From Gonapodya sp. JEL0774 (lineage: Eukaryota): a DNA stretch of 64,000 nt. The stretch is taken from NCBI GenBank assembly GCA_027604505.1, contig JADIIX010000021.1:124001-188000 (forward strand), in the 5' to 3' direction. The position numbers and the translations under genes were made by a program. Below are positions 712-50,750 of this stretch, in pieces. The notes below the pieces were generated by a model that was given only the letters and a program-made list of their open reading frames with translations, did not search any database and had not been told where the DNA came from. Position 1 is the first letter of the stretch, and each line of letters begins with the position of its first letter.

Positions 712-866
712 TTATGAGGAGGAGTCAATACGTACATGGTGACGTCTATAAGTTAATATCTATGCAATGGTGCCAAAACCAATCGAAAAAAACAATGTAC
801 AGTGTACACTCAGTTGCCCAGTGCCCAGTTTTCTTTATTCCGAAACGTCCTCGAATGGTAGGTGTT

Positions 867-7447: not shown

Positions 7448-7910
7448 ATGAAAAAACTGGATCTGGGATGGATCGCATTTCTAATCACGTTGAAGTGGAG
7501 CATGGAGAAGGGAAAGAAGGAGCCGGCAAATCACGCTGGAGATTGCCCAGGGTTTGCTCACTGGGAGTGCCATTGCCATCCAAATGGGCACGGGATCAGG
7601 CATCATCCTTGTTGACGTCGACGATGTGGAAGGGTGGCAGAAGATCCTGGCGGAAAAGGGTGAGATGGCACGTGACACAGTGACTGCGCGATCGCAATGT
7701 GGTGGTATTCACCACTACTTCAAATTTACAAATGAGGATGCGGACCTCAAGTCCACGTCCGCATTGCTTCGCAGGTGCGTCGACGTGCGCAAAAAGGGCG
7801 GAATGATCATTGTGCCGCCAAGCACGTTCCAAGTTCCTGGAGAGCCTGCACAACACGAGTATACGTGGGTTCCTTTTTTAGCACTTGTCTGGGAATATCA
7901 ATGTGACTAA
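7448..7910 (+). pseudogene. Prim-Pol (bifunctional DNA primase/polymerase, AEP superfamily) fragment, frameshifted and truncated
   Basis: Frame at 7448 reads MKKLDLGWIAFLITLKWSMEKGKKEP. After a shift near 7521 it reads RQITLEIAQGLLTGSAIAIQMGTGSGIILVDVDD...TVTARSQCGGIHHYF...VDVRKKGGMIIVPPS. This gives Prim-Pol motifs hhhDhD, T.sGG.H.YF and hDhR..GG.hh.PPS. Confidence 0.75.
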
Positions 7911-20849: not shown

Positions 20850-21084
20850 GAGTTTCTGGTTGAATCTCTGAGATGGCGACCAAGGACTTTTGTATGCCCA
20901 TCACCCAACTTCGCAATTATCCCAATTAAGCGGCAAACAGGCAGAATGACAGAGCGAATGCCATTTGCCAGGATATTTCTTCAAAGTACAATTCTGTATG
21001 GCTGAGCTGTTCCCGCCGTCATTGGTTCGGCAGAAGATTAACAAGGATACATGAAACCCGAAAGATAAACGCTCGGAGAAAGAC

Positions 21085-21740
21085 GCTCAAATATGTCTTC
21101 ATTGTACTCTTCTATTCTATATGCTGTTCCCCTCTATTAATCATACACCAACAAACTGTATAATGTAAGGCGAGCCTTTAGCCGTCACACCCGTCCATGA
21201 AAGAACGAGCGCGACGTTTCCAGGGTGCGCGCGTGGACGCCGCTCGCCAATGGCACCCCGTCCTGCGTATCCTCGGTCCCGCGTCTCCTCAATCCTGCGG
21301 TTCCTCAGTCCCGACCAGCGCCCCCCATCCTGATGGCGACGTGCTCCGACGCACGCGGTGGGATGGTCTCCTGTCAGGACAGGGCAGACCCCAGGGTAGG
21401 GAACACAGGGTCCTCCCGCCGTAGCCTGGAATTGACCACCCACAGTTCCCTCCGACGGGAATGGCCATGTTACACTCACGTAAGCTATCAATACATGTGG
21501 ACTTGATTGGAGTCGCATACGAGGGTCCGGCGGCGGTCTCGCGGTCTGGGCGCGGTTTGGCGCAGTTCGAGGTGGGTGAACCTAGGAACGCCAGAACGGC
21601 AAGCTGCAGGACGACCGAAGCCAAACGCGCGCTCTCTTACCGTTGGCGTCTGAGCTTCATAGTCGCGCTTTGTTGAAGTTCCGGTTTGTCAAATTATTGA
21701 TCAGATGGGCAGAACGGGCAAGCGATGGGGCGAAGTTCAA
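21085..21740 (-). repeat. Long inverted repeat, left arm
   Basis: The reverse complement matches 22320-22975; the core 21165-21530 is nearly identical. Confidence 0.92.
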
Positions 21741-22145
21741 CATTATAATAGAAGAATAGTTGCGTACCATAAATTGGGTACACATAACGTGAACACAATA
21801 AAACACTGTTTTGTATCAGCATTCCTTGTTATGGCTACGTTTCTACATTATGAAAAATTCAAATTGCTGTTCGTTGATTACACGCCACGGATTGTGGCCG
21901 TTTGGAGCTCGAGTTTGTGCTCCCGACAACTGGACCGCACGACATTGTACAAAGAACTGCACCTACCTTCTATGACATTGTTATTGCTTGGGAAGGCGCA
22001 AAGCACGCCGATTATCGGACGTGTTGGCGTGTTTGGCACTCACTGTTCTCGAGCGGGAACCCGGAGGGAGGTCGGCGTGGTGGTATCAGGCTTTGCTGTT
22101 GGAGTAACATCTGATGATATACGACACAGTGCTCACAAGTCACAA

Positions 22146-22310
22146 TTCAGAGTTCAGTGTGTTGGGTCAGGGTTCAGTGCACGGAGGTCAGACTTCAGTG
22201 TGTCGGGTTCTGCAGAGTTCAGTGAGTGTAATAGGTCAGACTTCAGTACATAGGTCAGAGTCAATTTATTTAGGTCAGATTTCAGTGAGTTGGGGTCAGA
22301 CTTCAGTATC
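22146..22310 (+). repeat. ~20-bp period tandem array, consensus GGTCAGAnTTCAGTG, about 8 copies
   Basis: GGTCAG units start at 22165, 22186, 22234, 22253, 22273 and 22294, with partial CAGAGTTCAGTG units at ~22148 and ~22213. Confidence 0.85.
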
Positions 22311-22319
22311 TTGCTTCTT

Positions 22320-22975
22320 GTATTGTCCTTCCCTTGCTTGCCTGTTGATCAATAATTTGACAAACCGGAACTTCCACAAAGCGCTACCACGAAGCTCAAA
22401 CGCCAGCGGTAAGAGAGCGCGTTTCTCTTCTGTTCTCCTCTCTGTCGTCCTGCAGCTTGCCGTTCTGGCGTTCATAGGTTTACCCACCTCCAACTGCGCC
22501 AAACACCCAGACCGCCAGACCGCCGGCAGACCCTCGTATGCGAGTCCAATCAAGTCCACATGTATTGATAGCTCACGTGAGTGTAACATGGCCATTCCCG
22601 TCGGAGGGAACGGTGGGTGGCCAATTCCAGGCCACGGCGGGAGGACCCGTGTTCCCTACCCTGGGGTCTGCCCTGTCCGGACGGGAGACCATCCCACCGC
22701 GTGCGTCGGAGCACGTCGCCATCAGGATGGGGGGCGCTGGTCGGGACTGAGGAACCGCAGGATTGAGGAGACGCGGGACCGAGGATCCGCAGGACGGGGT
22801 GCCATCAATTGGCGAGCGGCGTCCACGTCGCGCACCCTGGAAACGTCGCGCTCGTTCTTTCATGGACGGGTGTGACGGCTAAAGGCTCGCCTTACGTTGT
22901 ACAGTTTGTTTGCGTATCAATAGAGGGAGAACAGTGTATAGACTAGAGGAGTAAAATAAAGGAGATGTTCGAGGG
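22320..22975 (+). repeat. Long inverted repeat, right arm
   Basis: Example: ...catggacgggtgtgacggctaaaggctcgccttac (22861-22895) is the reverse complement of gtaaggcgagcctttagccgtcacacccgtccatg (21165-21199). Confidence 0.92.
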
Positions 22976-23338
22976 CATCCCTTTTTGCATGTACGTAATC
23001 ATTCTAATTTTGTCCTCTCCGTTCGTGAGATATGTTTAGTGCGTTCACCATGACCCGATGGTGAACAATCATTCCACCAAACCTTCGCGACAGCTCCCGA
23101 ATCGAATGGAACCCACAACAAGAGTGTAAAGTATTACGCTTGCGGGCACAAGGAGTGTAAAGTATCACGCATGCGGTCAGAAACGTTGCTCACACTAGAC
23201 AACGGGAGCAGGCCTTATTGAGACGAGGGTACACTAACTTCAGAATTCGTTCATCACGGGTAATACTAGTACACACTTCTTTACGTCTGATGTTACTTGC
23301 AGCTCCGTACAACCATCGAGAAGAGACAAATAAATAAT

Positions 23339-24208
23339 TCACACTTTCGCAGGCGCAGGCGCCGAGACATGGCTGTCAGGGGAGACAGAACTTGTGTTTG
23401 TTTTCATCATCATCGTTCCGGAACGTGCCGTTGCAGAAGCAGAGGTCGCCGGCCCACTTTGGTTGGAGCCTTTTCCGGAAGCCGAGTTGCCACGTTCAAG
23501 CATGATGACGACCATTGCCGTGCCAACATAGATGGTAATGTTGTCACCCCAAGCTCTGCTGAGTCCCGACGCTGCATTCAGGACCGGAATCAACAACAGG
23601 AACCACGAGAGGCACCTCACGAGCACCAAGACGCCAACTTTGGATGCACGACTGTTGACATAGGCTGAAATGAACTTGGAAACCTCGGAGTTGTGGGTGA
23701 TGCGGATTCGCATCATGTGGCATGCGATCTGGACGATCAAGAAGGCTGCCAAGAGACCCTGAAGGCCCGTTGTTGCGGTGCCTGGAGTGCTTGTGAAGTT
23801 TTGAATCCAGTATGGTCCGATGGCGTTGTAGCACAGGAGAACTTCCCTCACAAAGGCCGTGAGGATGCTGAGGATGGTGGTGGCCCAGTTGACGTACTCG
23901 ACGATCCCTCTCTTTCCGACGACCAATTTGTCGCCAAACGTTGCCAAGAGCAGTGCTTCGGATGATTGAGTCAACCAACTGAAAGTTCGAGCGATGGCAT
24001 AGGTAGCTTGTGCACCGGTGGAGGCAGGGTCCATGTATGTGTAACCGAACATGAGGACAAATGTGAGCAAGTAGCCTGGTGCGATCACTCTTCCGGACCA
24101 AGAGAGGAGAGTGTTTGTCTTGTTGGAAATCATGAGCTGGTTGTGCACGAAGGCGATGGATGCGGTGACCAATGTCGCACATCGAGTCATTTGAGTGACG
24201 GTCGTCAT
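23339..24208 (-). CDS. Intronless ~7-TM membrane protein (GPCR-like architecture, family unassigned)
   Basis: 289-aa ORF with about seven hydrophobic segments and a Ser/Thr-rich C-terminal tail. Confidence 0.7.
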   Translation of the reverse strand: MTTVTQMTRCATLVTASIAFVHNQLMISNKTNTLLSWSGRVIAPGYLLTFVLMFGYTYMDPASTGAQATYAIARTFSWLTQSSEALLLATFGDKLVVGKRGIVEYVNWATTILSILTAFVREVLLCYNAIGPYWIQNFTSTPGTATTGLQGLLAAFLIVQIACHMMRIRITHNSEVSKFISAYVNSRASKVGVLVLVRCLSWFLLLIPVLNAASGLSRAWGDNITIYVGTAMVVIMLERGNSASGKGSNQSGPATSASATARSGTMMMKTNTSSVSPDSHVSAPAPAKV

Positions 24209-25276
24209 GGTGACAAGCTCGGTTGGACTATTCGCGTAGAAGATGGGACAAGACCTGAGAGTAACCTGGAAGGGGAATAGGTTGAAGTTTGCGGGGAACT
24301 TGACGGCATGCAGCGCTTCGGTTGTGATGGACGCTTCAAACCTACCAGCGGAGGGCGGATTTTTCGCAAGAACGGGTAGAAATTGCAGGGGGGTTTCGCA
24401 CAGAAGATGAGATGAGTGCCATGAGTGCCTGAATCGCTGCCTTCGCCTTGAGTGTGGAATTCAGGGTTTCAGGTAACAGAGCGAATGGACTGGATCTGGT
24501 GCTCTGGTCCGAATATAAAACAGTGTTTCTTAGCGAACACCTACCGAATACTGCTGTATGCACCAGGTGTTCATCTGCAAGGGCGGAGACATACCGTAAT
24601 AGTGAAAGAGATGTTGACTCGACAAAAGTTGCCCGATGAGGACACTTTCATTCCGTCTTTCTCCGCCCCGTTTTGATTTCTGTAATTAACTCATTTGATT
24701 GTGTGTGTCCAGTAACGACAAAAAATACCAGGAGAGCACAGGGAAATCGCCATGATATCCAAGGATAATTCCATTGGGGACGGAGTTGCCCTTTACGCGC
24801 TCATGTACTCTTATATCTCGCGAGCCTTCGTCGGACAGATGCGATAATAAAATGCATAATCCTTGAACGGATAATAGGAAACCAAGAACAGTTTTGGTGT
24901 GTCCGGGTTCTTGGGTCGGGCGAACCTGGGCCGGTGAGTCACCGAGTACCCAACGCCGGAGGCGGAGAAAGGTTTTAGACACCAGCGAGCGGCCGATTTC
25001 TGCTGAACGACAGAGCGAACAAAAAAAGCACAAAGAAAACTGGAACGAGAAATGACGTCAGAAGGCGGCGGAAGTGGAATTGCCCCCATGGAGCTTGGAA
25101 ACCGACACTTCTGGCTCTGACTCAAGGTGGAACATCATTCTTCCTCCAACTCCAATATAAGAGGGACAAAGAACCCGCGTTCACTTCAATCTCAGATTTG
25201 TTTTCCTTTTTTTCTGTTTCACACGCTTTTGCGCTTTTTCCATTCCCGTTTCCCACACCAAATTAATTTCAAGTCA

Positions 25277-28200
25277 ATGCTCACATCTTCCCGCGCTCCC
25301 ATCTCCCGCTCGATTCTGATCCGCGCATCGGCGACATCCTCCCTCCCGCTCAAACCTTCTCCCATTTTGCCCGCTTCTCCGGTTTCAATCGCATCGAAAT
25401 CGACCGGATCCCGCCGTTTCAATGGAACCCGGACTCCCCTTGCGCACCTGGCAGGTCGGATCCCCCACCGAAACGGGTTCGCAACGCAAGCTTCTCCTGC
25501 CGGCGCTCGCCATTCCAGTGCACAAGAGACATTGCTGGTGCTCTATGGCTCGCAGGTGTGTATGAGATAACGAGGTGGTGCGGTGAAATCAATGGAAATG
25601 GACTGGGAGGTCGGACTTCGAAGTTCCCCCGCGTGTCTGAGTTAATACTTTGACTTTCCGGACGAAACCCATGCGATCCTCAAATTTGATCGCGTTTTGA
25701 ACTCCGCGTCATGGAATTGATGTGCCCGAACCTTTTTGGCGTCACCTCCGTGCTTCGAAACCCCGTAACTTGCGTCATGTGGCGCCTGTACCTCTTTTTC
25801 TCTCCTTTTGGGGGAATTTTCCTCCATCTTTGTTTCCATTCTAACCTCATGACTTGCGTATCTTCCTCCACTCTCGCCTTGAATTTGTACCCCGCCTCTT
25901 TCCTTCTCCCCACTACGCCCGCCCAACCCCACTTCGCAATCCCCCTCCACCCTCAGACCGGCACCACCGCCTCCTACGCCCAGACCCTCGCCTCGTTCGC
26001 CCGCTCGCGTGGCATCGCCGTGCGTGTACAAGATATGAAGGCCTTTACGGACCAGTGGGGCACCCAAGGGGTCGTCAAGGGATTAGCCAAGGAGGGAAAC
26101 GTCGGTGGGTTCGACTTTTTTGCTTTGTTGTTTTGTTGGTTGCTGGGAGTGAGCGTGGACAGGGATGGAACGCGGTGTGGTGTACATGATCGGGTCCTGA
26201 GATGTGCCGTGAGGTGGAGGAATTGTATTCTCCGCAGTGTTCCCGCCCTGGTCCGCTTGGAATAATTTCAATGAACTTTTCTGACCATGAACGTTGCCTC
26301 TGTTTCTATCTTCCCCTCCTCCCATCCAGTGTTGATGACCTCGACGTTTTACAACGGTGTGTTCGCATGTTCTCTGTCTGTTGATCACTCTCACCCACTG
26401 ATCCACCTTTCCTCGCACGCACCTTCCCTCACACAATTAGGAGAGTTCCCGGATAATGGTACGGGCCTATATTTTCGCTTGGTCGTTCACACGATACCAA
26501 TGCGTACTTGAACACCACTCGCTCCAACCACCCGTAGCCCTATCGTTCTGGACCGCACTGTCCAAGGCCGATCCATCCACCGCACCGGCGTTGCTGGCCA
26601 ACACCAAGTTTGCCATCTTTGGCTTGGGAAACAAGTCCAACAAAGTAATTGACGGACCCCACCGTTTTGCATAGCATGATCACCGCACGCAGGCTCATCG
26701 CAAAACTCGACCAAATTCATTTTCCGCCTTCCGATCGCTCGATCCTGACACGATCCGTGCCTGACCGTTACCCACCACGCCAAACCCATCCCACAAGTCC
26801 AACTTCAACCTCGCCGCGCGCCGTCTCGAGCAGAGGATCAAAGAACTCGGTGGACGGGAATTTGTTCCGGCAGGTGTGTGTTGGTGTGATTTGCAGGATC
26901 TACTGCTCTGTCGCCTCGTCCCACATGCTGAGCTGACTAATCGACCCCTCACACGTCGCGCATTCCACATAACACCAGGGTACGGCGACGAACTGGCCGC
27001 CTCTTCCCACGAATCATCCTTCCGCCCCTTTTTGAAATCCATCTGGTCCGCCCTGTCCGCCTCGTCCACCGCCACCTCCCTGCCGTCCTCCTACACCGTC
27101 TCACCCGCTCCCCAGGGTGCAAAAGACGATACCGCTGCTGCTCGTGGCGAAGGCTTCAGGGAGGTGCGCGTGACGGGGAACAAGGTGTTGTCGGGGAAGG
27201 GAGTGCAAAGGGAGATCAGACTCGTTTCGGTCGCGGTGGAGGGAGGAGAAACTTACCCCTTGGCGGGTCATGTCTTGGTAAGTTGAAAGATTTCTTGAAT
27301 TGTGTTTCCTTCGGCATTCAAGATCAAGGCAAGATCAAGGTGTGAATGAACCTCTCGCTGTTCCACCTAGGTTTCCGTTCCGAACCCTTCCAGCTTGGTC
27401 TCGCGCGCCATCAGAGCACTGGCCCTGGGTCCTACCATCACCCCGACGACTCTCCTCTCCATCACCCCGACCACCGCCTCGTCCTCTTCTCCCCTACCCG
27501 CTACCACCACCCTCTCCTCGCTCCTCACACACCACATCGACTTGCAGGGGTTGGCGACAAGGAGCTTCTTGGAGGCTCTCAGCGTCGTGGCCACAGATAA
27601 GAGGGAGAAGGAAAGGTTGCAGGAGATCGCAGAGGGGATGGGAGGAGTAGGCGGAGATGGGTACGCGAGGTTGACCGAAGGCGAGGTGGGTGTTGCGATG
27701 GGAGGGCGGCTCTCGAGTGGGTGGCTGAACGGTGACTTTGTACCGTTTTCTCGGTAGATCTTCTCTTATGTCGATGCTATGGAGATGTTCCCTTCTGCCC
27801 GACTCTCGATCGACCAGTTGATGTCTATCGTGCCACGGATACAACCCAGGTGAGCGTCTCGTCAGGACTGAGAACCCTCACTCGAACGATGCCGGTTCTT
27901 GTTCACGCACGTGCTTGATGTGCTCGCTCTAAACCTCCTCACTCCTCCCACGCATAAAGGTACTACTCCATCTCTTCCTCCCCGCTCGCCCAACCCTCGG
28001 CCATCGACATTATCATCTGCAAAGACGTGTGGCCCACACTCTCCAACCCCGAGAACAAGTTCCAAGGGTTGGCTAGCAGTTACCTGTCTGGGTTGAAGAA
28101 TGGGGACAAGGTGCTGCTCAAGTGGCAGGAGAGTCCGGTCAAGGTTGATGCGGGGACAAAGGTCGTGGCGGTAGGACTAGGAACGGGCATCGGTGTACCC

Positions 28201-31200
28201 CGTGGCATTTTGCAACATTTCTCGGCACTCAAGAAGCAGGGGAAACCCGTCGTGCCGATGGAATTGTTTTATGGGTTCAGGCATGCTGAGAAGGATTTGG
28301 TCCTCGAAGATGAACTGCGCGGGTATGAGACGGAGGGGTTGTGCACGGTATGCTGTTTGAAACTACTCAGTTCACAGACAGTGGTGATTCACACACTCGC
28401 ACACTGGCACTTTGCTTTTTTCAAAACGCATGCACCATCTCAGCTCTCTTTCTCCGCCATGGATCAAGGCTCTCTCGTTACTGCAGCTATCTCCAAAACT
28501 CCCACTGTTGCCTCTACACTGCTCGACAACAATGGAATATTCCTGTACACCGGCCCGGGTGGCGTCGTTCCCCAAGCAGTGGAAGTAGCCGTGCAAGAAT
28601 CCATCGCTACTACTCGCTCCATCCACCCGCAATCGGCGGCATCGGAGCTCGCTGATCTCAAGGCTGACCCGTCCAGGTGGATTGTGGAAGCGTACTCGAG
28701 GGAAGCGGATGTGGAGAATCTCCTCAAGTCTTACACCACCAAGTTGGACTCGGAGAAGCCGCTGGCGAGCGTGTTTGAAGGAAGTAAGATGCTTTGCTTT
28801 CAGTGCGAGCAAACATTCCAAGGGAAGGGTTGTACCACGTAAGTTCTTGTTCTTGGAGAAGAATGTATAAACAGATAAACCAGAGTTTATGAAACAGGGT
28901 CGGTGTGTGTGGGAAGACTCCAGAAGGTTTGTTTTTCTGCGCTTGTCGCTGTCAGCGCATTCTGACCTGTCCACACACTCTCTCCCTCACTAGTTGCCGC
29001 CCTCCAAGATCTACTCGTTGACGTTGTTAAGCGCCTCGGCTGGGTGAACCACCAGATTCGAACTCTTGCGGGCTCCTCCAGTGGTCTCAATGACTCCTTA
29101 CTCAACGCGGTCAACAGCCGCGAATCGGACAAGTTCACCATGTTGGCGTTGTTCTCGACCTTAACTAATGTAAACTTTGATCCGGCATCGATCAGGGACT
29201 ACATCGTGAATGTTCGGTGAGTACAAATAGTCCCATCTGATTCGTTTGCAATGTGTGACCTGACCTCCTGCCCAGATATCAAACTGCTGCGCGCACGAAA
29301 GTCTACAACGACCTTTGTAAATCTCTCAACGTTGCTCCAAACACATGTCCGATTCCTGACCTCTCTGGGAATCTCACGGATCCCGGTGCCCTAGCCAAAA
29401 AGGGTGAACTTGTCGGCGTCCTTGCAAAGTTCCGCACGGTGAAGAACGACGTAGTGGTTGGATTGGCAGAAATGTTAGTGTACGGTCTCAAGGGAGTTTG
29501 TGCCTACGGGGACCACGCGGTGCTTCTCGGAGAGGAGGACGCCAGAGTTTTTAACTACCTCAACGAGGCACTCGCGTTCTTGATCAGTCCTGAGAGTGCA
29601 AATTTGGATGCGGTAGTGCAGATGCTGCTTCGATGTGGTGAAGCGAACCTCATCACCATGGATACACTCCATCGCGCGAACACAAAGCGTGAGTTGTGTG
29701 GGAGCATTACGATCGCGTCGCTTTATTGAAACATTTTGTACCTTTCAATGTCTACAGACGGCGCTCAGTCTCCCGCTTCCGTGACGGTGGGACCGACTCC
29801 TGGAAAGGCAATTCTGATCTCTGGTCACGACATGAAATACCTGGAGGAACTCCTCGAACAAACGAAGGGAACAGGCGTCAACGTGTACACACACGGCGAA
29901 ATGCTCCCAGCGCACGGCTACCCCAAGCTCCGTGACTATGGGAACCTCGTCGGACACTTTGGCGTTGCGTGGCAGAGGCAGAGTAAGTCTCTCAAATTGG
30001 TTGAACATGAAATCTTGTGATGAATTTGACGCTTTCCCATCGTCTGCTGTCTTTTGACTCCAGCCGTGGAATTCCCGCACTTCCCGGGTCCAATCGTCAT
30101 GACCTCCAATTGTCTGGTGCCACCCAAGGATGATCTCAAGGACAGAATATTTACTGCTGGGTGAGTGTTCGGAAGCCGCGTTCCCGTTGCTGAGCCATCA
30201 CCATCATCTCTTGCTTAGGGCGGTCGCGTACCCGGGATGTCCAACAGTCGACTCCAGCAACTACGACTTTTCCGCTGTGATCAAGAAGGCACAGGAGATG
30301 ACAGGCTTCAGGGAAACCGACACCGAGTTCACGTATCCCCTTGATCGTGAGCGCCATTGTTAGGTGCACGAGTTTTCGCACCGAATCTGATCAATACGTC
30401 TTTCTCTGAATCACATCAGCTTTCGGCAAGCCCGCCAAAAGCTACAATGTCGGTTTCGCGTACGAAACCGTGCTTTCCGTGGCCCCGCAGGTGATTTCGG
30501 CGATCGAGAAGGGCGACATTACCCGGTTCTACTACATTGGGTGAGAGATCTCATGTGGTTTGGTTAGAATTGTCGGATACTGAATTCTCCACTTGATTGA
30601 CAATACTAGAGGGTGCGACGGGTTTGAGGGAGAGCGCAACTACTGTTCGTACCACGTAATTCGTGGGTCTGGGTCATCGTAAGCTCACTTTCTCTTCCAT
30701 CAACGTCATACAGACACCGAACTCATGGAAAACCTGCCTCCCACATCTGTGGTCCTCACCTCTGGGTGCGGAAAGTACCGGGTGTTGGGCGATAAGCTCC
30801 AGTATGCGACGATTGGTGACACCGGGATCCCGAGATTGCTCGATTTGGGCCAGTGCAATGACGCGTAAGTGTGTTGTTTGATCACGTGACTATGGCCGGG
30901 TTATCAGAGTTGTGGTCTTTAGATACTCGGCGATCAAAATCGCAGTTGCCTTGGCTGAGCATTTCAAGTGTGGCGGTGAGTCAAAGGCCGTGGCTGTTTC
31001 GTTCTCACGGTCATGGAGTCATTCATGGTGTTGTTTTCGATTAGTGAACGACTTGCCTCTCAACCTGGTCGTTTCTTGGTTCGAACAGAAGGCCGTCGCC
31101 ATCTTGCTGACACTTCTTCACCTGAATCTGAAGGGCGTAAGTTGAAGTGCTCGGCGTCCAATATTTTGAACCTTTTACAAACTCAGCTCACTGTTTCCAC

Positions 31201-31337
31201 CTGAACAGGTCCGAATCGGTCCCCGCCTTCCAGCTTTTATCCGTCCAGCAGCATTGGAATTCTTGGTGAAAACTTTTGATTTAAAGGCCATTGGAGATGC
31301 ACAGGAAGATCTTAAGGCGATGACTGGACAAAACTAA
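25277..31337 (+). CDS. hcp: Fusion protein: mitochondrial-type presequence + CPR-like diflavin reductase (flavodoxin/FAD/NAD(P)H) + hybrid cluster protein (hydroxylamine/NO reductase family)
   Basis: About 23 exons. Flavodoxin: [88 protein letters not shown]. The same exon (28444-28838) continues into [26 protein letters not shown]. Hcp motifs follow: [56 protein letters not shown] and IGPRLPAF. Stop TAA at 31335-31337. Confidence 0.93.
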
Positions 31338-32811: not shown

Positions 32812-35800
32812 CTATCTGGGCTGCTCCTTGTAGTCCAAACCAGAGAAGAATTTGTGCTTTGTCACTTCTCCCGTCGTTGGCCGTTTTGATGGATCTCGCA
32901 AAAGCATCAAATTCAATAGCTCAAAAGCCGAATCAGAAACGGCATAGGGATATCGTATCTCCTTTGCCGTGATCTCAGCAACATCCCGAAACGGATTCTC
33001 TGAAAACAAAAGAATGTAAAACAGGATTCCTAAAGCCCACACATCCTGCTCAGGACCTCGGTAGGAGTTGCCTTCGAGGACTGAAGACCCATTGTAAGTA
33101 TTGGTGGAGGTAGTGGGGGTATCTCGCAAGATCCACTTATTTCACGTACCTTCAGGAGCAGCATAATCGAGCGTTCCACAAAAGGTTTTGAACACCACCC
33201 CGGGCTTGTAAAATGCAGCAGAGCCAAAGTCGACGATTGTTACATCCAAGCTGTCCGAGATAATTACATTCTCATCCTTAGAGGGAGGGTACCATTCAGT
33301 TCGCGCACTACCAACTCCACATTGACGGCTGAAACAAGGAAATTTCTAACCCACCTTTATGTCTCTATGCACGATCCCATTGGCGTGCAAGTACGCGACA
33401 CCATCGACCACCTGCTTGAAAATATGCTGCACAATCTCTTCCGGTATGCGATTGCTTCCCTTTCCGAGATACATCTCCACATAGTCAAAAAGGTCTGCCG
33501 ACCCCAAACACGGCATAACGACGTAGAAATATTGATCGTCCGAAAAAAAGTCCACGAGGTGTGCAACGTATGGCGATCGCCGAGGATCTTGACGGATCTT
33601 GTGCAAGACCAGAATCTCTGTTGGAACCATTCCCAGATCGGGGTCACTCGAGTAACGTGAGAGCGCAATCGAAGACCGCAGACAGTGCTTTATTACGTAG
33701 GGTGTCCGCGTTGGATCTCCTTTGAGGTACGCCTTCCTCACAAATCCGAAAGCTCCAGGAGATCCCAAACGTTCCCCAACAACGTACTTGGCCAATCCAA
33801 TTCGAGCGTGTTTGAGGGTTGGTGCAAGAGGAGCGATCGATGCAGTTTCCAAGCCCAAGTTGGATGCAGTGGGAGTCACTGTTTCGGTGTGAGATGCGAG
33901 ACTACGCTCCGAATTGAAACCTTGCACAGTGTTCATCTCCGATTCAATTGTCAACTCAGACCCGTGTTGACGTATCCCTTTGTCAGACGCCACATTCACA
34001 TCATCAATTACTCCATCAGCTCTTCCCTCTACACCCTCCAATCCTCTGTTAAGTGATTCCTCACCCAGTTTCATTCTGGTAGCAGAGACACTAGCTACCT
34101 CGCGGAGCTTGACCATAGCCACATGCCCCAGATTGCTTTTCATTAGTACCGCGGACCGAGCAGGGTGGTGAGCAGTCGAATTGGACAGAACAGAGCCTCC
34201 TATGGCTCCAGGTGCGTGATCAGATACGGCAAGCGGCGAGCGAAGACTTGAAACGTTGAAGGTGCTCCAAGATGACGTCGGGGCGACACCCTTGTGTAGA
34301 TTCCTCCGCCGATATGTTATCCACAGCGCCCACAAGTCGCCCCTGGCTTCCCTCACTCTCCTGACCCGCACGTCCACCAGAATCTTGGTTCCGTCTCTAT
34401 GCACGGCTTCCACCCTCTTGGTGTCCCCGTCCGGAATTTGCACGATTTCCCTGAAGGAGGGAAACAACCGCTCGACTGCGACTGTGCCTAAAGACTCCAC
34501 GTGGGCGCGAGAGAGACCAAGCATATACTTGGCAATGCTACGATTGAGGCTGGCTATGCTGCCAAGTGTCATCATCGGGGCCGGAGCGGAGCTGGTCGGA
34601 GCTTGTGCGGCGACAGTACTGATGTCAGTCCTTTCGTTCGAATCTTCAGGGTCGAACGGCCGGACGGATACCAATCCCGCAACGTATGGCATTGCGTGCA
34701 TCCTGAGCTCCACGACATCCTCCTCTTCCTCCCTCGTCCCACGACGACCGAGTTGTCTTTCTCCCTCTTCCACGACTCTCACAACACAAGGAAACGCCTC
34801 ACCTGAAGCATCAAGCCCACAAAAAAACTTATCGCGACGAATTACGGCGGGATCCAGCGAGGGCGCAACAGCAGATGGAGTCGCAGAGGAGCTGGCGAGC
34901 GCGGGCACGAGAGACCACAAGGTTCGGCCGATGAGGTCAGAAGAGGGGACGCCGAAAAACGCAAGAGAGGAGAGAGAAGAGGATGTGATGACACCCTAGG
35001 AACGACGAAGACCAGATAAATTAGATGTAGATATGGAGAAAGAAACGCCAAAGGGGTCTCCCCCGCGCTCACATCTCTCCGAACCGCGATCACACAATCC
35101 ACTTCCTCCACCGGTTGAAACATCCAGACGTAAACTCTCTGTCGGTCCTCCTTCACTTGGTTTTCAAGATCTTGTGGCGTGTCCGTCTCGGTCATAACCA
35201 GAGGGTCCACAGCGCCCCCCAGCGGGGCCGCTCTGACCCACTTTTCCTTGAGCCACAAGCTCGCTGGCGCAGAGGACCCGTCCGCGCGATGAATCCTCAC
35301 GACCTTGCCGTTCACCAAGACCTCGTCGTCTTGACCGTCCTTTCCCACCCTTGCTCTGACGACGCGCTCGGCCCGGTCCCCGTACCCGGTCCAAAAGCAC
35401 CTGTACACGCTCATGCCGAGCACTTCTTCGGGCTCGTACCCGAATAAGGACAGGAATGCCGGTGGTTGGGCGACCGTCAGGATCGTTCCTGACGAGGTGG
35501 TGGTGAGGAAAGTGGACGTGGTGGTCGCAATGAGAGTGGGTGTGTGAAGAGGTTTCGACGTGGAGGGAGAGAGAGGAGATGAAGATGACGACGGGGAAAA
35601 CGCCGCACGGTCCGAAATGAAGGCTTGTGCACCGTCCGTAGCGATACTGCCCAAGGTGTGGGAAGAAGCCGGAGTTATACCGGAGCCAGAGCCAGAGCAG
35701 TCGAGGGGAGCCTGTTGGGAGCTCACCGTCGACTCTTTTCTGTGTGGCCGTGGCGGGGAGGCGTTGAGCGCGGATTCTGTGGGCACGTCGGGCGTGCTCC

Positions 35801-37289
35801 AGACTCTGCTCGAGTCATTCAACGCGATGAAGGAGGAACCAGAGGGGAACGAAGTGGAGGATGTGATGGAGGATGGGGAGGTGAGATCCAAGGGGGACGT
35901 GCTTTGGCGGTGTTGGTTGTCGTTTGATGGGTCGGTCAGGGTTTCGCTAGCTTGGGAAAGGTTGCGGAGAGCAGCGAGCGGGGGTGGGGTGGGAAGAACG
36001 AACGATGTTGGAGACACTGCGGGGTCCGCGGAGGCCTGGAGTGGCCCCGAACCAGCACCAGGTCGCTGTGGAAGGTCAGCTCGTTGGGCAGCCACCAGGC
36101 CCACGCTACCGACACTGTCACCCGCACGGTCTCTCTTGAGGGCGGATACTCCAGCGATCCCATTGACAGATCTGGCGAGGAGCACCCTCCCTGAGCTGGC
36201 CCAAAGCCTCTCGCCGATGTCTGCCCTGAGCGGGGACATGGGAGAGGCTTTGGAACGTTTGGCTGGAGCGAAATCCGAAGGAGAGTATGAGAAGGAGAGA
36301 GGGGAGTCGGTGGAGAAGGTAGAGAGGGAGGATGGAGGCGACGACGATGGTGTCGAGGGGGATTCGAAGAGGGGTGAGTTTGATTGATGCGAGGTTCCTC
36401 CGGCAACGAGACGCTCTATGGCAGCGCTCGAAGAAAGGTCAGGGATCGCGTGGGATGTACTGAGACGGCCGGGAAGTGGGAATCGCGCCACCTGCCGCGG
36501 CCGCTGAGGCTGATGGGTGGTGTGCATTTGGATGTGTGGGTCGTTCCGTTCGTGCACAGGAACGAGGGCCGCCGCCGACGGATTATTATCCGACGAGTCA
36601 CGTTGTGGTAACAGCGGCATGCCAGCTGCCGATGCGAACAAGCGGCGAGGCAGGCTGGCCGATCTGACTGGAGGGCGGGGTCCGCTCGCTGCGAGGCCGC
36701 GCAACATACTACCTCCCCGGCAGCCGCTGGGCCCCGCACCGTTGGGACTGTCGTCGTCGCTGCCACCACAACCATAAAATGCGTCACCACGATAATGACT
36801 GCTATCCTCGTCGCCATCGTGGTCACCCTCCTCACGAATGAACGGTAGGGCGGACATGATCAACGGGTTGAAGGAGTCGAGCGATTCGAATCGCAGGTTT
36901 GCAACAGTGCCAGCTCTGGTGCCGGTGGGTCCGCAGTCATCTGCTGTCGCCCTCGTTCGACTCGAGTTGTCACAAGGGGCGGTGTAAATACACGATGGGT
37001 CACGAGTGTCGGCATGGTGTGTGTCGTCGGCTCTGGAGACGTCCCTCATTCCTCCTCCGCATTCCCCCAAGCCCCCAGACCAAGCGTCCAGACCGTCAAG
37101 ACCAAGACCAGCAAACGCACGGCGTTGCCGAGTGGGATCCGCCCATGTCTCCGACTTTAAAAAAGCGATTTCAAGCTGGTCGTCGCTGGCTGCACTGAGA
37201 CTCTGCGGGAGGGCGGGCAGAAACGAGTCCACGGACTTCGCCAACACTGGCGTCGCCGTCGCAGCGTTGTTGGACGATTGGCGATTCAT
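32812..37289 (-). CDS. PAS-domain serine/threonine kinase (PSK/PASK family)
   Basis: PAS-like segments LFGYEPEEVLGMSV...RIHRADGS and AVHRDGTKILVDV. Kinase motifs GAFGFV, HRDIK|DENVII, VDFGSA, FCGTLDYAAPE|VLEGNSYRGPEQDVWALGILFYILLFSENPF. Confidence 0.9.
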
Positions 37290-38018
37290 TCTCAAATAGG
37301 CCGATTCTGCGGGTTCCCGCAGGCTGTCAAATTCTGATCGCTGTCCGGGAATTTTCTATGCATTTTAAACTTGTTGCCCAAGGCTCCAAGGGAACAAACA
37401 GATCAGCGAAGACACCAGAACAAGCACTAAATTCACCTGAAGTTTCCACCAAAATGCCACGCCTGGATTAACAGCAATTATAAGAGTCCGATTTAAATCA
37501 CTTCTTTGCAAGAGTCTTGAGAACCGTAACTTTTATGCCGTCCTAGGAAAGTGGTGTCCACCCAACGCCGAGTCTGGTTCGGCACACCCCGTCCTACCTT
37601 CTTTCTCTCTCTCTTAGATGATGAGACAGAAGCTCAAATTTTGACATTGACGTTCCACTTGCGCACGAGCGAGGCGCTGGCAATATTACAGTAAAAGCAA
37701 ACAACTGGGACTCTTCGCTTTAACCAGTAACGGGGCAATCTCGCCAGAAAAATATGACAAAGGAAAGAGGCCATGTATAAAGGCAACAGTTGCAGCTTTC
37801 AACCCCAAGTAAATTATTCCAGGGGAGCGCCATGACCATTGACCCGGTTGTTGTGCTGTTATTCACAAATGGGGTACGCAGAATCACAGATTTTCGCATT
37901 GAACGTTTGCAAGAGAGAATTTACAACGCGATCGCAACTCAAATTCGAGCCGAAAGCGAAATCCAAATAATCTTGACCGTCCGTCGCCGTTGGAGCTGTC
38001 CCCCGACTCGATTCATCA

Positions 38019-45309: not shown

Positions 45310-48300
45310 TCATGAGGATTCCGTGTCCAGCAATGCCCTGGCGACGGGGAACTCTATGCAAAACTCCCGTTCACCCTTCGAACGCACCTCCTCCACATAC
45401 AAATCGAAACTTCGTCTCAGTATCGTCAGTCGTTCAGCGTCTGTGGGGTGACTGTCCAGCCAATCGGAGTATTGTTGATGTGTCCATGAAAATCGTTCGG
45501 TGGGAAGAAGAAGAGTGCCTGCGGGTGACCTCGCAAATACGTGCTGGAGAACCAAGGGCAGAGGTAGCGCGGTGATGGAATTGGTAGAGGACGAAGTTCC
45601 CTTCATAGTGCGATTTGGAGAGTGGTTCGAAGGTGAGTTGGATAGGAAGGTTTCAGGTGATGAAGCAGCAGGTTCGTGAACTTCGTGTGACTGCTGCCTC
45701 GCCGATGTAATGTCACTGAGCTCCATAAACAAGAGTGTTCTCAACGATCTGAGGGCGCGGTAATTGGCAGTCAGCTCAGGATCCTTGCCCTCTGCTAATC
45801 CGCCTTTGACGCTGGAATCCGACATCCAAGAGTTCACAACAAATTCAAATTGGGCCAACTCATTCGCGAGTCGCGACCTCCCAGCATTGCGCAGACGGAT
45901 CATTGTGGCGTGTCGCAAGAAAACTTCCACCAGTCTATTCGCAAGTGTCCGAATCCAACTTCTTGGCTCGTCACTCTCAGAAGGTAGTGTGGCTGGGGAG
46001 AGCTTCGAAAAGACTGTGGTGGTAATCCATCGAAGCTTTGTGCTGAGTTCAGATAGATAGACCGAAGTTTCACTGTTACGAGCAATTGGGGCACTTGTTG
46101 TGCTCTCAGTTGGTCCGGGGGCCGGGGAGGCACGCCCGAGTTGGGTGCCACCCCTAAAGCGAAAAACATCCAGTGATCAATTACACAAGGGCGGTAAACT
46201 TGATCATCTCTCACCTCCCATAGTCCACGGAATGCATCTTCAGAATGACCAACTCCAACTCCCGCGCCAACCCTCGCATGAGAGGCTCAACTACGCTCAT
46301 GATAACATTTCTCACTCTTCCAAGATCCGAATGCACCTTGTTGTAGAGTAGGCCGACGGGTTCCACCCTCGGCGCAACAACGGCACCACTACCTGGGACC
46401 TCGAGAGTCTGAGGAGGCTCGAACTCATCCACGAGTTTCCAGCACCCTTCTTCGAACGTCCAAAGTGCTACGACCAAGTCCAAATTATTGACGAGAGGTA
46501 CTATAGTTGCCGCCGTACCCAACGAAGCACCCGAGCCACCCGATGTAACAATTGGGACAAACACCGCGAACGGTTCATGATTGACCATTGCATCACCGCG
46601 CTTTGCAACTTCTCCAACGATGGAGGCCACAAGTAGCACAATCTTCTCGAAAAACTCGCGGTGGAAGCGAGCGATTTCCAATTCCGAATGGATTGCCCGG
46701 ACGCATTTATCCGCATCGCCAGAGGTTGGCATTTGGGCGCGAGCGGCGTTCGGGAAGGCAAACTGCACAGGTTCATAGAGACGAGCTTGAGAGCGAGAGA
46801 GGTACGCAGTTTCAAAAGGCTGAAGGATAATGTCGAAGCTGCAACAGAAGTTGTGGAGCGTTTAGTTGTGATGGACTTGGAGTATATGAGACACAGAATG
46901 CTACCTCTCAACAACATTCCTTCGTTCTGATCCAAGTCCATCTTCGATTCTCCGTACCCGGCTCCTTCCCTCCTTCACGCTATCGGCACCGTCAACCTCT
47001 GCTGCCGCCACCTTTTCAGACAACTCCTTCACCATTCTCAGCAGCTTGGGATAGTTTCTTTGAAATGTCGCTTGCACATAAGGTGATTGGGTACCGGCAG
47101 ATTTCAGAGAAGAAGCCGTCGCCAATGTAACATGATGCCAAAAGTAAGTTACGGGCGTTGGTCGCACATCATCTTTCCCTGGAGGAGCTGCTCCTGGATC
47201 TCCCCAGGTCGCACCCCACCCCCAGCCAGGCGCTCTGATAAGCTCGTCAAGGAAGGCAATCCGAGTCTCAGTGTCTCTCCTTCGAGCGAGGACCCTTTCA
47301 AGCACCAGAACGCGCTGAAATCCAGCATAAGTCGCATCAGCAGCAGCATCAAATCGAGACCACAGATGAGTTGTAAAGGCAGTAGACTGAGGAGGGGTCG
47401 TTGGGTCATAGATAGAGGTGGTGGGACCCGGGGACGAGAAGGGAGGACCAGGCACACCAGGTGTCAACGTCCGCTTCAGAGTACTCGGAGTACCTGATCC
47501 TGGTGGTGAAATACCAGCTGCTAAGGATATGGCGGGGACATCAGAAGCCGCCCGCCACGCGTCACGGACCTGTTCCACAATGATACTGAGAGTAGAATGG
47601 ATACGGCGTGGTAAAAATGTCCGATCGAGGTTGCGGTGTATTACAAGAGCAGATGAGAGGGCGGCGAGGTCACTGGAAGTTGCGGGCGGTGTGAGGTGTG
47701 GAACCGGCGCGGAGGATGTGTGTTCAAGTTCGGTTGTCCGTTTCAGCCCGAGTACTCTATCAATGATGTTATCGGCACAAGAAACAATCTCATGTCGCGA
47801 TGAGATAATGAATTCGAGCTCGGCATCAACGACTGAGATCCCCGACAAATCTGAATTGGCCCGGAGTTGCTCGATTTCTGCGATAGTCAAGGCTGCCGCA
47901 GCAAGCTCAACTTCACGAGAAGGGACTACGGAGGAAGAAGAGGAAGTGACAGTAGATGGGACACCAGATTCGAGCACCTGTGTGGGCAGCGCCGCGGCTG
48001 CCGACTTCATTTGAAGAGACAGTCTTTTGTGGAGAGAGAGGAATCGAATGACCTTACGAAGACAGTCGGCCGCGAGAAGAACATGAGAGAGTTGTGTCGT
48101 AAGACCTGAGAGGGTATTGTAAGGAACTGTCGTTTTCGCTTTCAGCCTAGAGGATCCAAGTAATTCCAAGTCCAAAATGTGAAGATTCTGATATTGCACT
48201 GGAGACAAGTCACCTGTTGACACTGCCCTGAAGAGCTGCAACAGCGTCTTTCACGGTCTTAAGCTGCGAGCTGAGATCACCGATGCCAGTCACTTGTTGG

Positions 48301-49244: not shown

Positions 49245-50750
49245 ATGGCCATCTCCGAAGTTCTCATCCAGCGCATCGCTGCGATCGAGAATGCTCTCGC
49301 GCCAATCGTGGACCCGATCGAGACAGTGGCCGGGAAAATCCTGTCTTCTGTCGCAGACACCGAGCGAATGAGAAAATGGATGGCCGCGAACGCGAGCAAA
49401 CACACAGCACGCTTGCCTCTTATGAACCCTGTGAGTTTTATAGACCCATTCGACGGCTGGCCCCATTTATCAGGCATGTGGTGTCAATCGTTCTCCTGTG
49501 AATGTTGTGAAACAACCAAACCCAATCACCACTTGGTGTCCGGCACCTGATGATTCATGCTCTAGAAGGGCTGCTATCTCTTATGCAGTGTATCAGTGAA
49601 CTAATCATTTTGATGTGACATCGCTCTGACTCCTATATTGGGTTCTTCACCTCTCCAAGTTCCACGTCATCCTCATCATCTCAACGTACCTGGTGATCGT
49701 GGTCGCCGGAAAACGCGCCGCAGCGAATCCCGCTATCCCCAAACTCGAGGTCAAGCAGTTTGCTCTCGTCCACAACTTGCTCATGGTGGCGCTCTCCGCG
49801 TACATGTGCATTTCCGTTCTCGCCGCCGCCTTCTTGAGCAAGGACTCGATTGGCTACCGCTACTCTCTATGGGCAAACCCTGCGGACGAGACGGAGACGG
49901 GATGGGTAATGGCAAGGAGTATTTGGGTGTTGGTTTCAATGATCATTGAATTTCGTCTTGAATTTGAACTGACTTCAGTTTGCCTGCTACAGATTTTACT
50001 TCTCCAAAATTCTTGAATTCAATGACACTGTGAGTCTTGCGATCCTTTCTTCACCTGTCTTCGTATCCGGCTCATCAGTTTTCAACTCACGCAACTCCGA
50101 TCGCCACCTCAAGTTTATCATGCTGGCAAAGAAAAACTTTCGCCAAGTCTCTTTCCTCCACGTTTACCACCACAGCTCGATTTTTTCTGTGTGGTGGCTC
50201 GTCACTTTCATGGCACCGACTGGTGAAGGTTTGTGTAATGGTCCCATTACCTTGATGTTTTTGCCCACAATGGTGACAATTAAGTTTGTTCTTCGCATTA
50301 GCGTACTTTTCTGCGGCCCTCAACAGCTTTATTCACGTTGTGATGTACGGATATTACTTCTGCTCCGCAATCGGTATCAAGCAGGTTTCTTTCATCAAGA
50401 AGTACATCACCATGATGCAGATGACCCAATTTTGCATGATGATGTGTCAGGTTTGTCCAGAAATCTGATCTACCATTCGTTATCCCGATTCCTCACAGCG
50501 ATCAACACTTCAGGCCACTTATGATATTGTCCACGCCATTTTCATCGCCCCGGGGCTTCCATCTCCCCAACCGCCGTTCACAGCGACTACGTACCCACTT
50601 CTCCTCTCTGTGATTCTCTTCTTCTACATGATTTCAATGCTCGCATTGTTTTATAACTTCTACCAGGCGGATCGTAGGAGGGAGAGGGAAGCAAAGAAAG
50701 CAAGTAGCAAGGTTGCGAATGGCGTTGCAACTGGGAAGAAGGAGGAGTAA
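49245..50750 (+). CDS. ELO-family fatty acid elongase, PUFA (delta-6 elongase-like) type
   Basis: LPLMNP|FHV, VHNLLMVALSAYM, FYFSKILEFNDT, QVSFLHVYHH, LNSFIHVVMYGYY, ITMMQMTQF, and a basic C-terminus GKKEE. Confidence 0.9.

What the first reader, a model, noticed from the sequence alone, without database searches (positions are those of the whole stretch)
25277..25555. Mitochondrial-type presequence on the CPR-Hcp fusion
Seen: the first 83 residues have no Asp/Glu, are rich in Arg/Ser/Ala/Leu and include RRFNG, RNGFAT and RHSSA cleavage-like sites. There is no hydrophobic ER anchor of the kind canonical CPR carries. Inference: the protein is imported into the mitochondrial matrix, next to ISC Fe-S assembly and the NADH pool. 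This would be an anaerobe-type redox module inside a fungal mitochondrion.
Basis: partly seen in the sequence, partly recalled or inferred. Interest (0 to 1): 0.7.

Follow-up and report, generated by a model that had tools for sequence, protein, structure and literature searches.

The report
Self-fed Hcp enzyme with mitochondrial-type tag
A water-mould-like fungus has an intact gene joining an iron-sulfur enzyme of the hybrid-cluster type to a two-flavin reductase predicted to feed it electrons, with an extra acid-free leader that probably sends it into mitochondria, as already shown for unfused versions of the enzyme in an amoeba.

Summary
ATG 25277 opens a 23-exon, 1279-aa diflavin-reductase–Hcp fusion. 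The first Asp/Glu is residue 84, with 11 Arg/Lys before it. The locus matches Gonapodya sp. JEL0774 HDU93_003558, whose public model uses an out-of-frame start and a poor donor and loses this leader.

For import: the G. prolifera orthologue has an 85-aa leader of similar make-up. The ancestral start Met aligns with a TTG here, so the leader is needed to start translation. 34 of 65 fusion proteins have basic leaders, and Hcp is mitochondrial by microscopy in Acanthamoeba.

Against: there is no N-terminal amphipathic helix. The cited cleavage sites are chance-level. The missing ER anchor is uninformative, because no relative examined has one. A threonine dehydratase 12 kb away also has an 81-aa acid-free leader that its orthologue does not keep clean. 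Other named fungal fusions lack the leader, and a Gonapodya paralogue starts acidic.

Mitochondrial at least in part: about 0.65. The NADPH 2'-phosphate residues are replaced, which suggests NADH use. The scan found this fusion, and Hcp–reductase pairs read as mitochondrial, on other DNA before. This is a modest new variant.

The parts
25156..25160 (+). TATA-like element 121 nt upstream of ATG 25277 (putative)
   Evidence: Seen directly; function inferred
25197..25259 (+). Pyrimidine-rich block just upstream of the ATG, as in many fungal core promoters and 5' leaders (recalled)
   Evidence: 15-18 pyrimidines per 20 nt in the bins from 25200 to 25259
25277..25528 (+). 84-codon N-terminal leader, acid-free to residue 83, 11 Arg/Lys; candidate mitochondrial presequence
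   Evidence: orthologue leader of 85 aa
25412..25429 (+). RRFNGT, an R-10-type processing motif (definition recalled); chance-level
   Evidence: 41% of shuffles contain one
25422..25424 (+). Out-of-frame ATG used by the public gene model P0001, together with a weak donor at 25518
   Evidence: donor score -2.0, against 3.7-10.7 for the 21 other donors of the gene and 8.9 for 25556
25439..25471 (+). Most amphipathic 11-mer of the leader (residues 55-65, muH 0.60)
25469..25486 (+). RNGFAT; the F-A-T-x-S words recur at a similar distance from the domain in the orthologue; candidate maturation region
   Evidence: Alignment; RxxF[SA][ST] occurs in 9% of shuffles
25532..25534 (+). TTG (Leu86) aligned with the start Met of leaderless relatives and with the internal Met of the G. 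prolifera orthologue; purine at -3; possible minor near-cognate start
25529..25555 (+). First strand and phosphate loop of the flavodoxin domain, split by intron 1
   Evidence: strand E2-6 in the AF2 model of P0003
25556..25956 (+). Intron 1 (401 nt, GT-AG, phase 0)
25529..28700 (+). Diflavin reductase module (FMN, FAD and NAD(P)H domains; about residues 85-668; exons 1-11)
   Evidence: Pfam Flavodoxin_1/FAD_binding_1/NAD_binding_1; best solved relatives by sequence are CYP102-type reductases
28453..28464 (+). SAMD (residues 587-590) at the site where BM3 has the NADPH 2'-phosphate Ser-Arg; family consensus S-H-D
   Evidence: Asp in 61 of 65 rows, Arg in 6 of 65
28795..28910 (+). Hcp cubane motif C-x2-C-x8-C-x5-C (C701, C704, C713, C719), split by intron 11; absent from the public model
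   Evidence: all four invariant in 65 of 65 rows
28795..31337 (+). Hybrid cluster protein module with all hybrid-cluster ligand positions (H960, E984, C1028, C1129, C1157, C1186, E1220, K1222)
   Evidence: ligand roles recalled from Desulfovibrio Hcp
25277..31337 (+). Whole gene: 23 exons, 22 GT-AG introns, 1279 aa, no internal stop
   Evidence: 75% identical to G. prolifera P0002 over 1197 columns

Best explanation
The gene encodes a 1279-aa fusion of a soluble two-flavin reductase and a complete hybrid cluster protein behind an 84-residue basic, acid-free leader that probably acts as an atypical cleavable presequence for import into the mitochondrial matrix. Shown: the exon structure, the leader, both modules, every cluster ligand, the absence of a membrane anchor and the altered 2'-phosphate site. 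Inferred: import through TOM/TIM23 and cleavage somewhere in residues 46-82. Inferred: cluster assembly by the ISC system. Inferred: electron flow NADH > FAD > FMN > [4Fe-4S] > hybrid cluster, reducing NO to N2O (or hydroxylamine) under low oxygen, by analogy with bacterial Hcp-Hcr. Inferred: the leader was added upstream of the ancestral start in the Gonapodya A lineage, while paralogue B, with an acidic start, stays in the cytosol.
For: The leader is translated: L86 (TTG) aligns with the start Met of leaderless relatives, the next in-frame Met is residue 120, the ATGs at 25422 and 25545 hit stops after normal splicing, and the 25556 donor scores 8.9 against -2.0 for the public model's. The orthologue P0002 (sister in both trees, support 100) has an 85-aa leader with first acid at 69, 10 Arg/Lys before it and a similar S/T/A/P share (0.54 vs 0.52). 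The two leaders do not align better than shuffles: composition is kept and sequence is not, as expected of a targeting peptide. An acid-free 83-mer has a chance rate of 2-3%. 34 of 65 fusion proteins have a basic leader, many of MRR/MLRR type. Hcp is mitochondrial by microscopy and induced by hypoxia in Acanthamoeba (PMC13632651, passages). An unfused Hcp is listed in the Diplonema mitoproteome (PMC12699882, supplement row). Hcp is placed among LECA mitochondrial proteins (PMC13777428, passages). There is no PTS2 match, no PTS1-like end and no signal or anchor hydrophobicity. The cofactor site lacks the equivalents of BM3 R966/K972/Y974 and has an Asp; those residues were changed to shift BM3 toward NADH (PMC5817062, table passages).
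Against: There is no N-terminal amphipathic helix: muH is 0.31 and 97% of shuffles score higher; the orthologue scores 0.39, at its shuffle mean. The first 15 residues hold only 2 Arg/Lys (orthologue 1), against a median of 3 and a minimum of 2 in the 32 other basic leaders. There are six Pro in the first 40 residues. The cleavage motifs are chance-level and are not shared by the orthologue. The in-window control cuts against the acid-free argument: threonine dehydratase P0121 has an 81-aa acid-free P/S/A/T leader (only 4 Arg/Lys), its G. prolifera orthologue starts M-E, and the Boothiomyces protein has no leader. Only 2 of 11 named fungal rows have a basic leader; the closest outside relative, Hyaloraphidium P0003, has none as annotated. 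The family works without a leader in many lineages, so mitochondrial ISC is not required. No predictor, RNA or proteomic data were obtained.
Confidence: 0.5

Rival explanations
1. The leader is translated but is a disordered, low-complexity tail with no targeting role, and the enzyme is cytosolic like its leaderless fungal, ichthyosporean and oomycete relatives.
For: Weak amphipathicity and chance-level motifs. A neighbouring gene has a similar acid-free leader that is not kept clean in its orthologue. 21 of 65 fusion rows have under 10 residues before the domain, including nearly the whole sister clade. A stop-free frame is easy in this C-rich DNA (62% of Markov copies).
Against: Both Gonapodya A leaders are basic (11 and 10 Arg/Lys before the first acid, against 4 in the control), of equal length and nearly acid-free, although their sequences have diverged. 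The family often carries presequence-like leaders.
Confidence: 0.27
2. Dual location: a weak presequence gives a mitochondrial form, and leaky scanning to the old start position (TTG 25532 here, an internal ATG in G. prolifera) gives a cytosolic form.
For: ATG 25277 has T at -3, while TTG 25532 has A at -3. G. prolifera keeps Met at that position, and leaderless relatives start exactly there.
Against: An out-of-frame ATG at 25422 lies between the two and would catch scanning ribosomes. The threonine dehydratase start also has T at -3, so that context may be normal in this genome. A separate paralogue could already supply the cytosol.
Confidence: 0.15
3. The leader is not translated: the real transcript starts downstream or splices as in the public model, and the leader is open 5' sequence.
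For: The public model P0001 starts at 25422. The Hyaloraphidium model has no leader.
Against: The public model uses the worst-scoring donor, loses flavodoxin strand 1 and also drops the cubane cysteines. No in-frame ATG exists between 25277 and residue 120. The orthologue has the leader. TATA-like and pyrimidine-rich elements lie upstream of 25277.
Confidence: 0.08

Closest known systems
Acanthamoeba castellanii mitochondrial HCP (ACANB09472; PMC13632651)
   Same: Eukaryotic Hcp, anaerobe-associated, mitochondrial by tagging and proteomics (passages)
   Different: 648 aa and unfused (supplement row); localisation shown there, only inferred here; amoebozoan, not fungal
Annotated diflavin-reductase–Hcp fusions of Basidiobolus, Polychytrium, Podochytrium, Sphaeroforma, Aphanomyces, Saprolegnia, Chromera and Chrysophaeum; the Cyanophora 'HCP fused to sulfite reductase' footnote (PMC8003979, Table 4)
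   Same: Same domain order and ligands; 42-53% identity over the Hcp region for these named rows; the footnote was seen
   Different: The named non-monoblepharid fungal, ichthyosporean and oomycete members have 0-6 residues before the domain; the long acid-free leader is confined to the two Gonapodya A proteins among 11 fungal rows
E. coli Hcp-Hcr (class II Hcp with its NADH oxidoreductase; PDB 7de4)
   Same: Hcp fold (best sequence hit; TM 0.93 on the target) fed by a pyridine-nucleotide reductase; NADH oxidoreductase named in a reference title
   Different: Hcr is a separate FAD/[2Fe-2S] protein, whereas here an FAD/FMN module is fused in. The cubane spacing is x2-x8-x5, not the longer class II spacing (class spacings recalled)
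CYP102A1 (BM3) reductase domain and ER cytochrome P450 reductase
   Same: FMN-FAD-NAD(P)H domain order, RYYSISS and GxGxG motifs
   Different: No ER anchor and no P450. The 2'-phosphate Ser-Arg/Lys/Tyr residues are replaced, the catalytic Cys position is Thr619, and the C-terminal aromatic is Tyr and is followed by the Hcp

Membership tests
Cleavable mitochondrial matrix presequence | N-terminal, translated extension ahead of the first folded domain | tested here: met
   (genomic and homology evidence; no RNA)
Cleavable mitochondrial matrix presequence | Net positive, almost no Asp/Glu, rich in Ser/Ala/Leu/Arg | tested here: met
   0 D/E and 11 R/K in 83 residues; 2-3% by chance
Cleavable mitochondrial matrix presequence | Amphipathic helix near the N-terminus (TOM20 element) | tested here: not met
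   muH 0.31 in residues 1-30, below 97% of shuffles; no phi-x-x-phi-phi match; best 11-mer is at 55-65 with 0.60
Cleavable mitochondrial matrix presequence | MPP/Oct1/Icp55 cleavage motif (definitions recalled) | tested here: inconclusive
   One R-10-type match at 46 (41% by chance), no R-3 match, not shared with the orthologue
Cleavable mitochondrial matrix presequence | Directs import and is removed | not testable with these tools
   No TargetP/MitoFates/DeepLoc, proteomics or import assay available
Peroxisomal, ER or secretory targeting | PTS2 nonapeptide, PTS1 end, or hydrophobic signal/anchor | tested here: not met
   No PTS2 match, C-terminus TGQN; maximum hydropathy 0.80
Hybrid cluster protein | Four N-terminal cubane cysteines | tested here: met
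   C701, C704, C713, C719
Hybrid cluster protein | Hybrid-cluster ligands and Hcp fold | tested here: met
   Eight positions present; AF2 model of relative P0003, pLDDT 87.7, matches 1e2u at TM 0.93 on the target
Hybrid cluster protein | NO or hydroxylamine reductase activity | not testable with these tools
   Needs the purified enzyme
Canonical NADPH-cytochrome P450 reductase (CPR/POR) | FMN, FAD and pyridine-nucleotide domains in one chain | tested here: met
Canonical NADPH-cytochrome P450 reductase (CPR/POR) | N-terminal ER anchor | tested here: not met
Canonical NADPH-cytochrome P450 reductase (CPR/POR) | 2'-phosphate residues S596, R597, K602 (PMC3105092 legend) | tested here: not met
   SAMD aligns with BM3 Ser-Arg; family S-H-D. 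It works like a diflavin reductase but is not a CPR orthologue

The most novel reading that the evidence does not exclude
Gonapodya keeps two copies of a self-sufficient NADH-driven Hcp: one re-routed into the mitochondrial matrix by a newly gained, non-amphipathic presequence, and one in the cytosol behind an acidic start. This would be a two-compartment NO/hydroxylamine-reducing, NADH-draining system in a fungus with ordinary mitochondria, and a one-chain model for eukaryotic Hcp and its electron donor.
Probability: 0.35. Interest if true: 0.65.

Novelty: new variant of a known kind. Interest (0 to 1): 0.42.

Why it matters
The role and electron donor of eukaryotic Hcp are open questions: the Acanthamoeba paper only hypothesises NO removal or nitrogen metabolism. 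A single-chain enzyme with its own reductase makes substrate and cofactor directly testable. Two paralogues with opposite N-termini would let compartment and function be compared in one organism. If import is confirmed, it adds a fungal mitochondrion to the list with anaerobe-type redox enzymes, bearing on the claim that Hcp was mitochondrial in LECA; the tree here fits a later re-targeting in this lineage at least as well. It also corrects a public gene model that lacks the leader, flavodoxin strand 1 and the cubane cysteines.

Tried and rejected
No whole genome is held for this window, so paralogue B's gene structure and genome-wide N-termini could not be examined. Sequencing runs: none was listed; this is not used as evidence. 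My first splice model had three wrong junctions (only its N-terminal alignment is used) and was corrected. Cleavage motifs, TOM20 element and PTS2 were tested against shuffles and dropped as evidence. The missing ER anchor was rejected as evidence for import. Third-position codon bias did not separate frames. ESM Atlas gave only unnamed bacterial clusters at 0.86 for the leader and generic diflavin reductases at 0.77 for P0002, both below a useful level. The idea that the reductase derives from pyruvate:NADP oxidoreductase was not supported: the two long non-Hcp hits I checked were other fusions. The bacterial promoter scan is irrelevant to a fungus. Rfam had no hit in 20900-25600. The threonine dehydratase meant as a positive control turned out ambiguous and counts against specificity. 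van Lis et al. 2020 is not held. No paper on the oxygen tolerance of Gonapodya was found; one paper notes a Cys in its Ura9 like that of anaerobic fungi (PMC8520639, passage). The Euglena mitoproteome supplement had no Hcp term. No diflavin or flavodoxin term was found in the 4 readable Acanthamoeba supplements.

Full report
1. Observation. ATG 25277 opens a 279-nt first exon. The first acidic residue is E84. Residues 1-83 hold S16, A12, R9, P9, L7, T6, I6 and K2. The highest 19-residue hydropathy mean is 0.80, so there is no anchor or signal peptide. An acid-free 83-mer is uncommon: 415 of 18,929 stop-free 83-mers of the window, 7 of 285 Met-initiated ones, 3.2% of open Markov copies and 0 of 65 mature fusion bodies. 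An open frame alone is not surprising in this C-rich DNA (62% of Markov copies).

2. The gene. A 23-exon model (25277-31337; 22 GT-AG introns) gives 1279 aa without a stop. One exon is 100% identical to Gonapodya sp. JEL0774 HDU93_003558 (P0001), which identifies a monoblepharid fungus. The model is 75% identical to G. prolifera P0002, 69% to Hyaloraphidium P0003 and 62-63% to a second pair, P0004/P0005. P0002 is the orthologue: it is sister in both trees with support 100. Its listed contig length also equals that of the G. prolifera threonine dehydratase, just as P0001's equals that of the window's (synteny inferred).

The public model P0001 starts at the out-of-frame ATG 25422 and splices at 25518. 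That donor scores -2.0 on a matrix from the gene's 21 other donors (range 3.7-10.7), against 8.9 for 25556. P0001 thereby loses the leader and flavodoxin strand 1, and elsewhere it drops the four cubane cysteines. In-frame Mets are at 1, 120 and 145 only. Leu86, a TTG codon, aligns with the start Met of leaderless relatives and with an internal Met in P0002. I infer that the leader was added ahead of the old start, which has since decayed here.

3. The enzyme. Residues 85 to about 668 are a flavodoxin-FAD-NAD(P)H module whose best solved relatives by sequence are CYP102-type bifunctional P450 reductases. It is soluble and is not a CPR orthologue, so the lack of an ER anchor says nothing about import: none of the 74 rows exceeds a hydropathy mean of 1.32 in its N-terminal part.

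Where BM3 has Ser-Arg...Lys-x-Tyr for the NADPH 2'-phosphate, the window has S-A-M-D. Across 65 fusion rows the site is Ser 59, His 46 (Arg 6), Asp 61, and Phe 48 at the Tyr position. Those residues bind 2'-phosphate in CPR (PMC3105092, figure legend), and R966/K972/Y974 were changed to shift BM3 toward NADH (PMC5817062, table passages). NADH use is therefore likely but untested, and it also holds for leaderless members, so it does not locate the protein. The catalytic Cys position (Cys in 54 of 65) is Thr619 here.

The Hcp module keeps C701/704/713/719 and all eight hybrid-cluster positions (roles recalled). An AF2 model of relative P0003 (62-row alignment; pLDDT 87.7, pTM 0.80) starts its first strand at residue 2 and matches Desulfovibrio and E. 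coli Hcp at TM 0.93 on the target.

4. The family. One search returned 119 long Hcp-containing proteins from 7997 scored candidates. I took 73 with the reductase-Hcp layout plus the model. For the tree I dropped P0001, the internally short P0039 and seven near-identical Aphanomyces copies, leaving 65 rows. My rule for a basic leader was at least 10 residues, no acid in the first 15, and net charge at least +2 in the first 30. By it, 34 rows have a basic leader, 21 have none and 10 are other. Thirty-two basic leaders are outside the named fungi, many of MRR/MLRR type; two records with the same source label differ, one with (P0044) and one without (P0034). Among 11 named fungal rows only the window and P0002 are basic (P0018 is partial). 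The B pair starts M-A-D-I-E-D-L. The sister clade of the monoblepharid proteins (Basidiobolus, chytrids, Sphaeroforma, oomycetes) is almost wholly leaderless. The root is not inferred, so gain versus loss is not settled. Many leaders come from automated gene calls.

5. Is the leader a presequence? For: P0002 has an 85-aa leader with first acid at 69 and 10 Arg/Lys before it, with the same S/T/A/P share. Its sequence does not align better than shuffles (score 31 vs mean 37), so composition and length are conserved without sequence. There is no PTS2, no PTS1-like end and no signal.

Against: the first 30 residues are less amphipathic than 97% of their shuffles, and the orthologue's are at chance. 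The R-10-type match occurs in 41% of shuffles and is absent from P0002; there is no R-3 match (motif definitions recalled). Basic residues are sparse in the first 15 positions: 2 and 1, against a median of 3 in the 32 other basic leaders. A Pfam scan of 139 of 146 long ORFs (the 7 antisense to this gene left out) found a threonine dehydratase 12 kb away, a family that is mitochondrial in yeast (recalled). Its N-terminus is acid-free for 81 residues but has only 4 Arg/Lys; the G. prolifera orthologue begins M-E, and Boothiomyces has no leader. So long acid-free P/S/A tails occur in this genome without clear targeting value. The Hcp leader differs in being about three times as basic. I put mitochondrial location, whole or partial, at about 0.65.

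6. Literature. Acanthamoeba Hcp is mitochondrial by microscopy and rises under hypoxia; the same paper says earlier reports for Chlamydomonas and Nyctotherus await validation (PMC13632651, passages; 648 aa, supplement row). A 593-character unfused Hcp is in the Diplonema mitoproteome table (PMC12699882, supplement row; the main text has no mention). MitoTOL counts Hcp among LECA mitochondrial proteins (PMC13777428, passages). A review footnote records an Hcp fused to 'sulfite reductase' in Cyanophora (PMC8003979, passages). PMC1484493 (passages) covers patchy distribution and does not mention this fusion in the passages shown. Searches listed no paper on a fungal Hcp's location or on the fused enzyme's biochemistry. 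van Lis 2020 was not held, Hagen 2022 was not read, and four MitoTOL supplements were too large to open, although G. prolifera is in that study's species set; these may bear on novelty.

7. Earlier scan notes (unchecked AI notes) describe the leaderless fusion in Basidiobolus-type genomes, and head-to-head Hcp-reductase pairs read as mitochondrial in Naegleria, a diatom and another protist, one with an NADH switch. They agree, which I ran before reading them, and they are not independent support.

8. Verdict. The leader is real and translated on genomic and comparative grounds. It is probably, not certainly, a mitochondrial presequence of atypical form. Mitochondrial Hcp is known and the fusion is widespread. 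What is new is a fused, leader-bearing fungal form beside an acidic-start paralogue, and a corrected gene model. New variant of a known kind; interest 0.42.

Noticed in passing
window 21097-21703 and 22346-22961: Inverted duplication, 90% identical over 623 columns; no Pfam or Rfam hit; possibly a mobile-element remnant.
   Followed up: partly
window 38019 to about 41450 (+): Threonine dehydratase (P0121) with an 81-aa acid-free, Pro-rich leader; the G. prolifera orthologue starts M-E and a chytrid one has no leader, so this enzyme may not be mitochondrial in these fungi.
   Followed up: partly
window 7494-7907 (+): ORF with a Prim-Pol bifunctional primase/polymerase N-terminal domain (E 5.5e-13), a family mostly known from mobile elements (recalled).
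   Followed up: no
window 838-2806 (-): Two CrcB (fluoride channel) domains, probably one FEX-type gene (FEX recalled).
   Followed up: no
window 26795-26797 and 27957-27959: Two of the 22 introns of the fusion gene end in AAG rather than YAG.
   Followed up: no
P0004, P0005, P0126: A D-[IM]-E-D-[LF] word near the N-terminus of both B paralogues and of one unfused Hcp; behind it the B proteins have a basic amphipathic stretch (muH 0.69-0.76), which could be a masked or alternative presequence.
   Followed up: partly
P0032, P0033, P0036, P0042, P0045-P0052 and related rows: Many unnamed fusion proteins carry, after a short basic leader, a roughly 60-residue segment with a recurring Cys/Trp word ahead of the flavodoxin domain: possibly an extra small domain.
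   Followed up: no
P0101: A different Hcp fusion: Hcp followed by cytochrome b5 and b5-reductase-type domains, an independent route to a self-fed Hcp.
   Followed up: partly
window 28795-28910 versus P0001: The public model splices out the Hcp cubane cysteines, which are intact in the DNA.
   Followed up: yes
window 32815-37355 (-), 46904-48250 (-), 49630-50521 (+), 53187-55567 (+), 60115-60606 (-), 62786-63620 (-): Ordinary neighbours: protein kinase, COG5, fatty-acid elongase, RIC1, TatD and SRAP domains; nothing links them to the Hcp gene.
   Followed up: no
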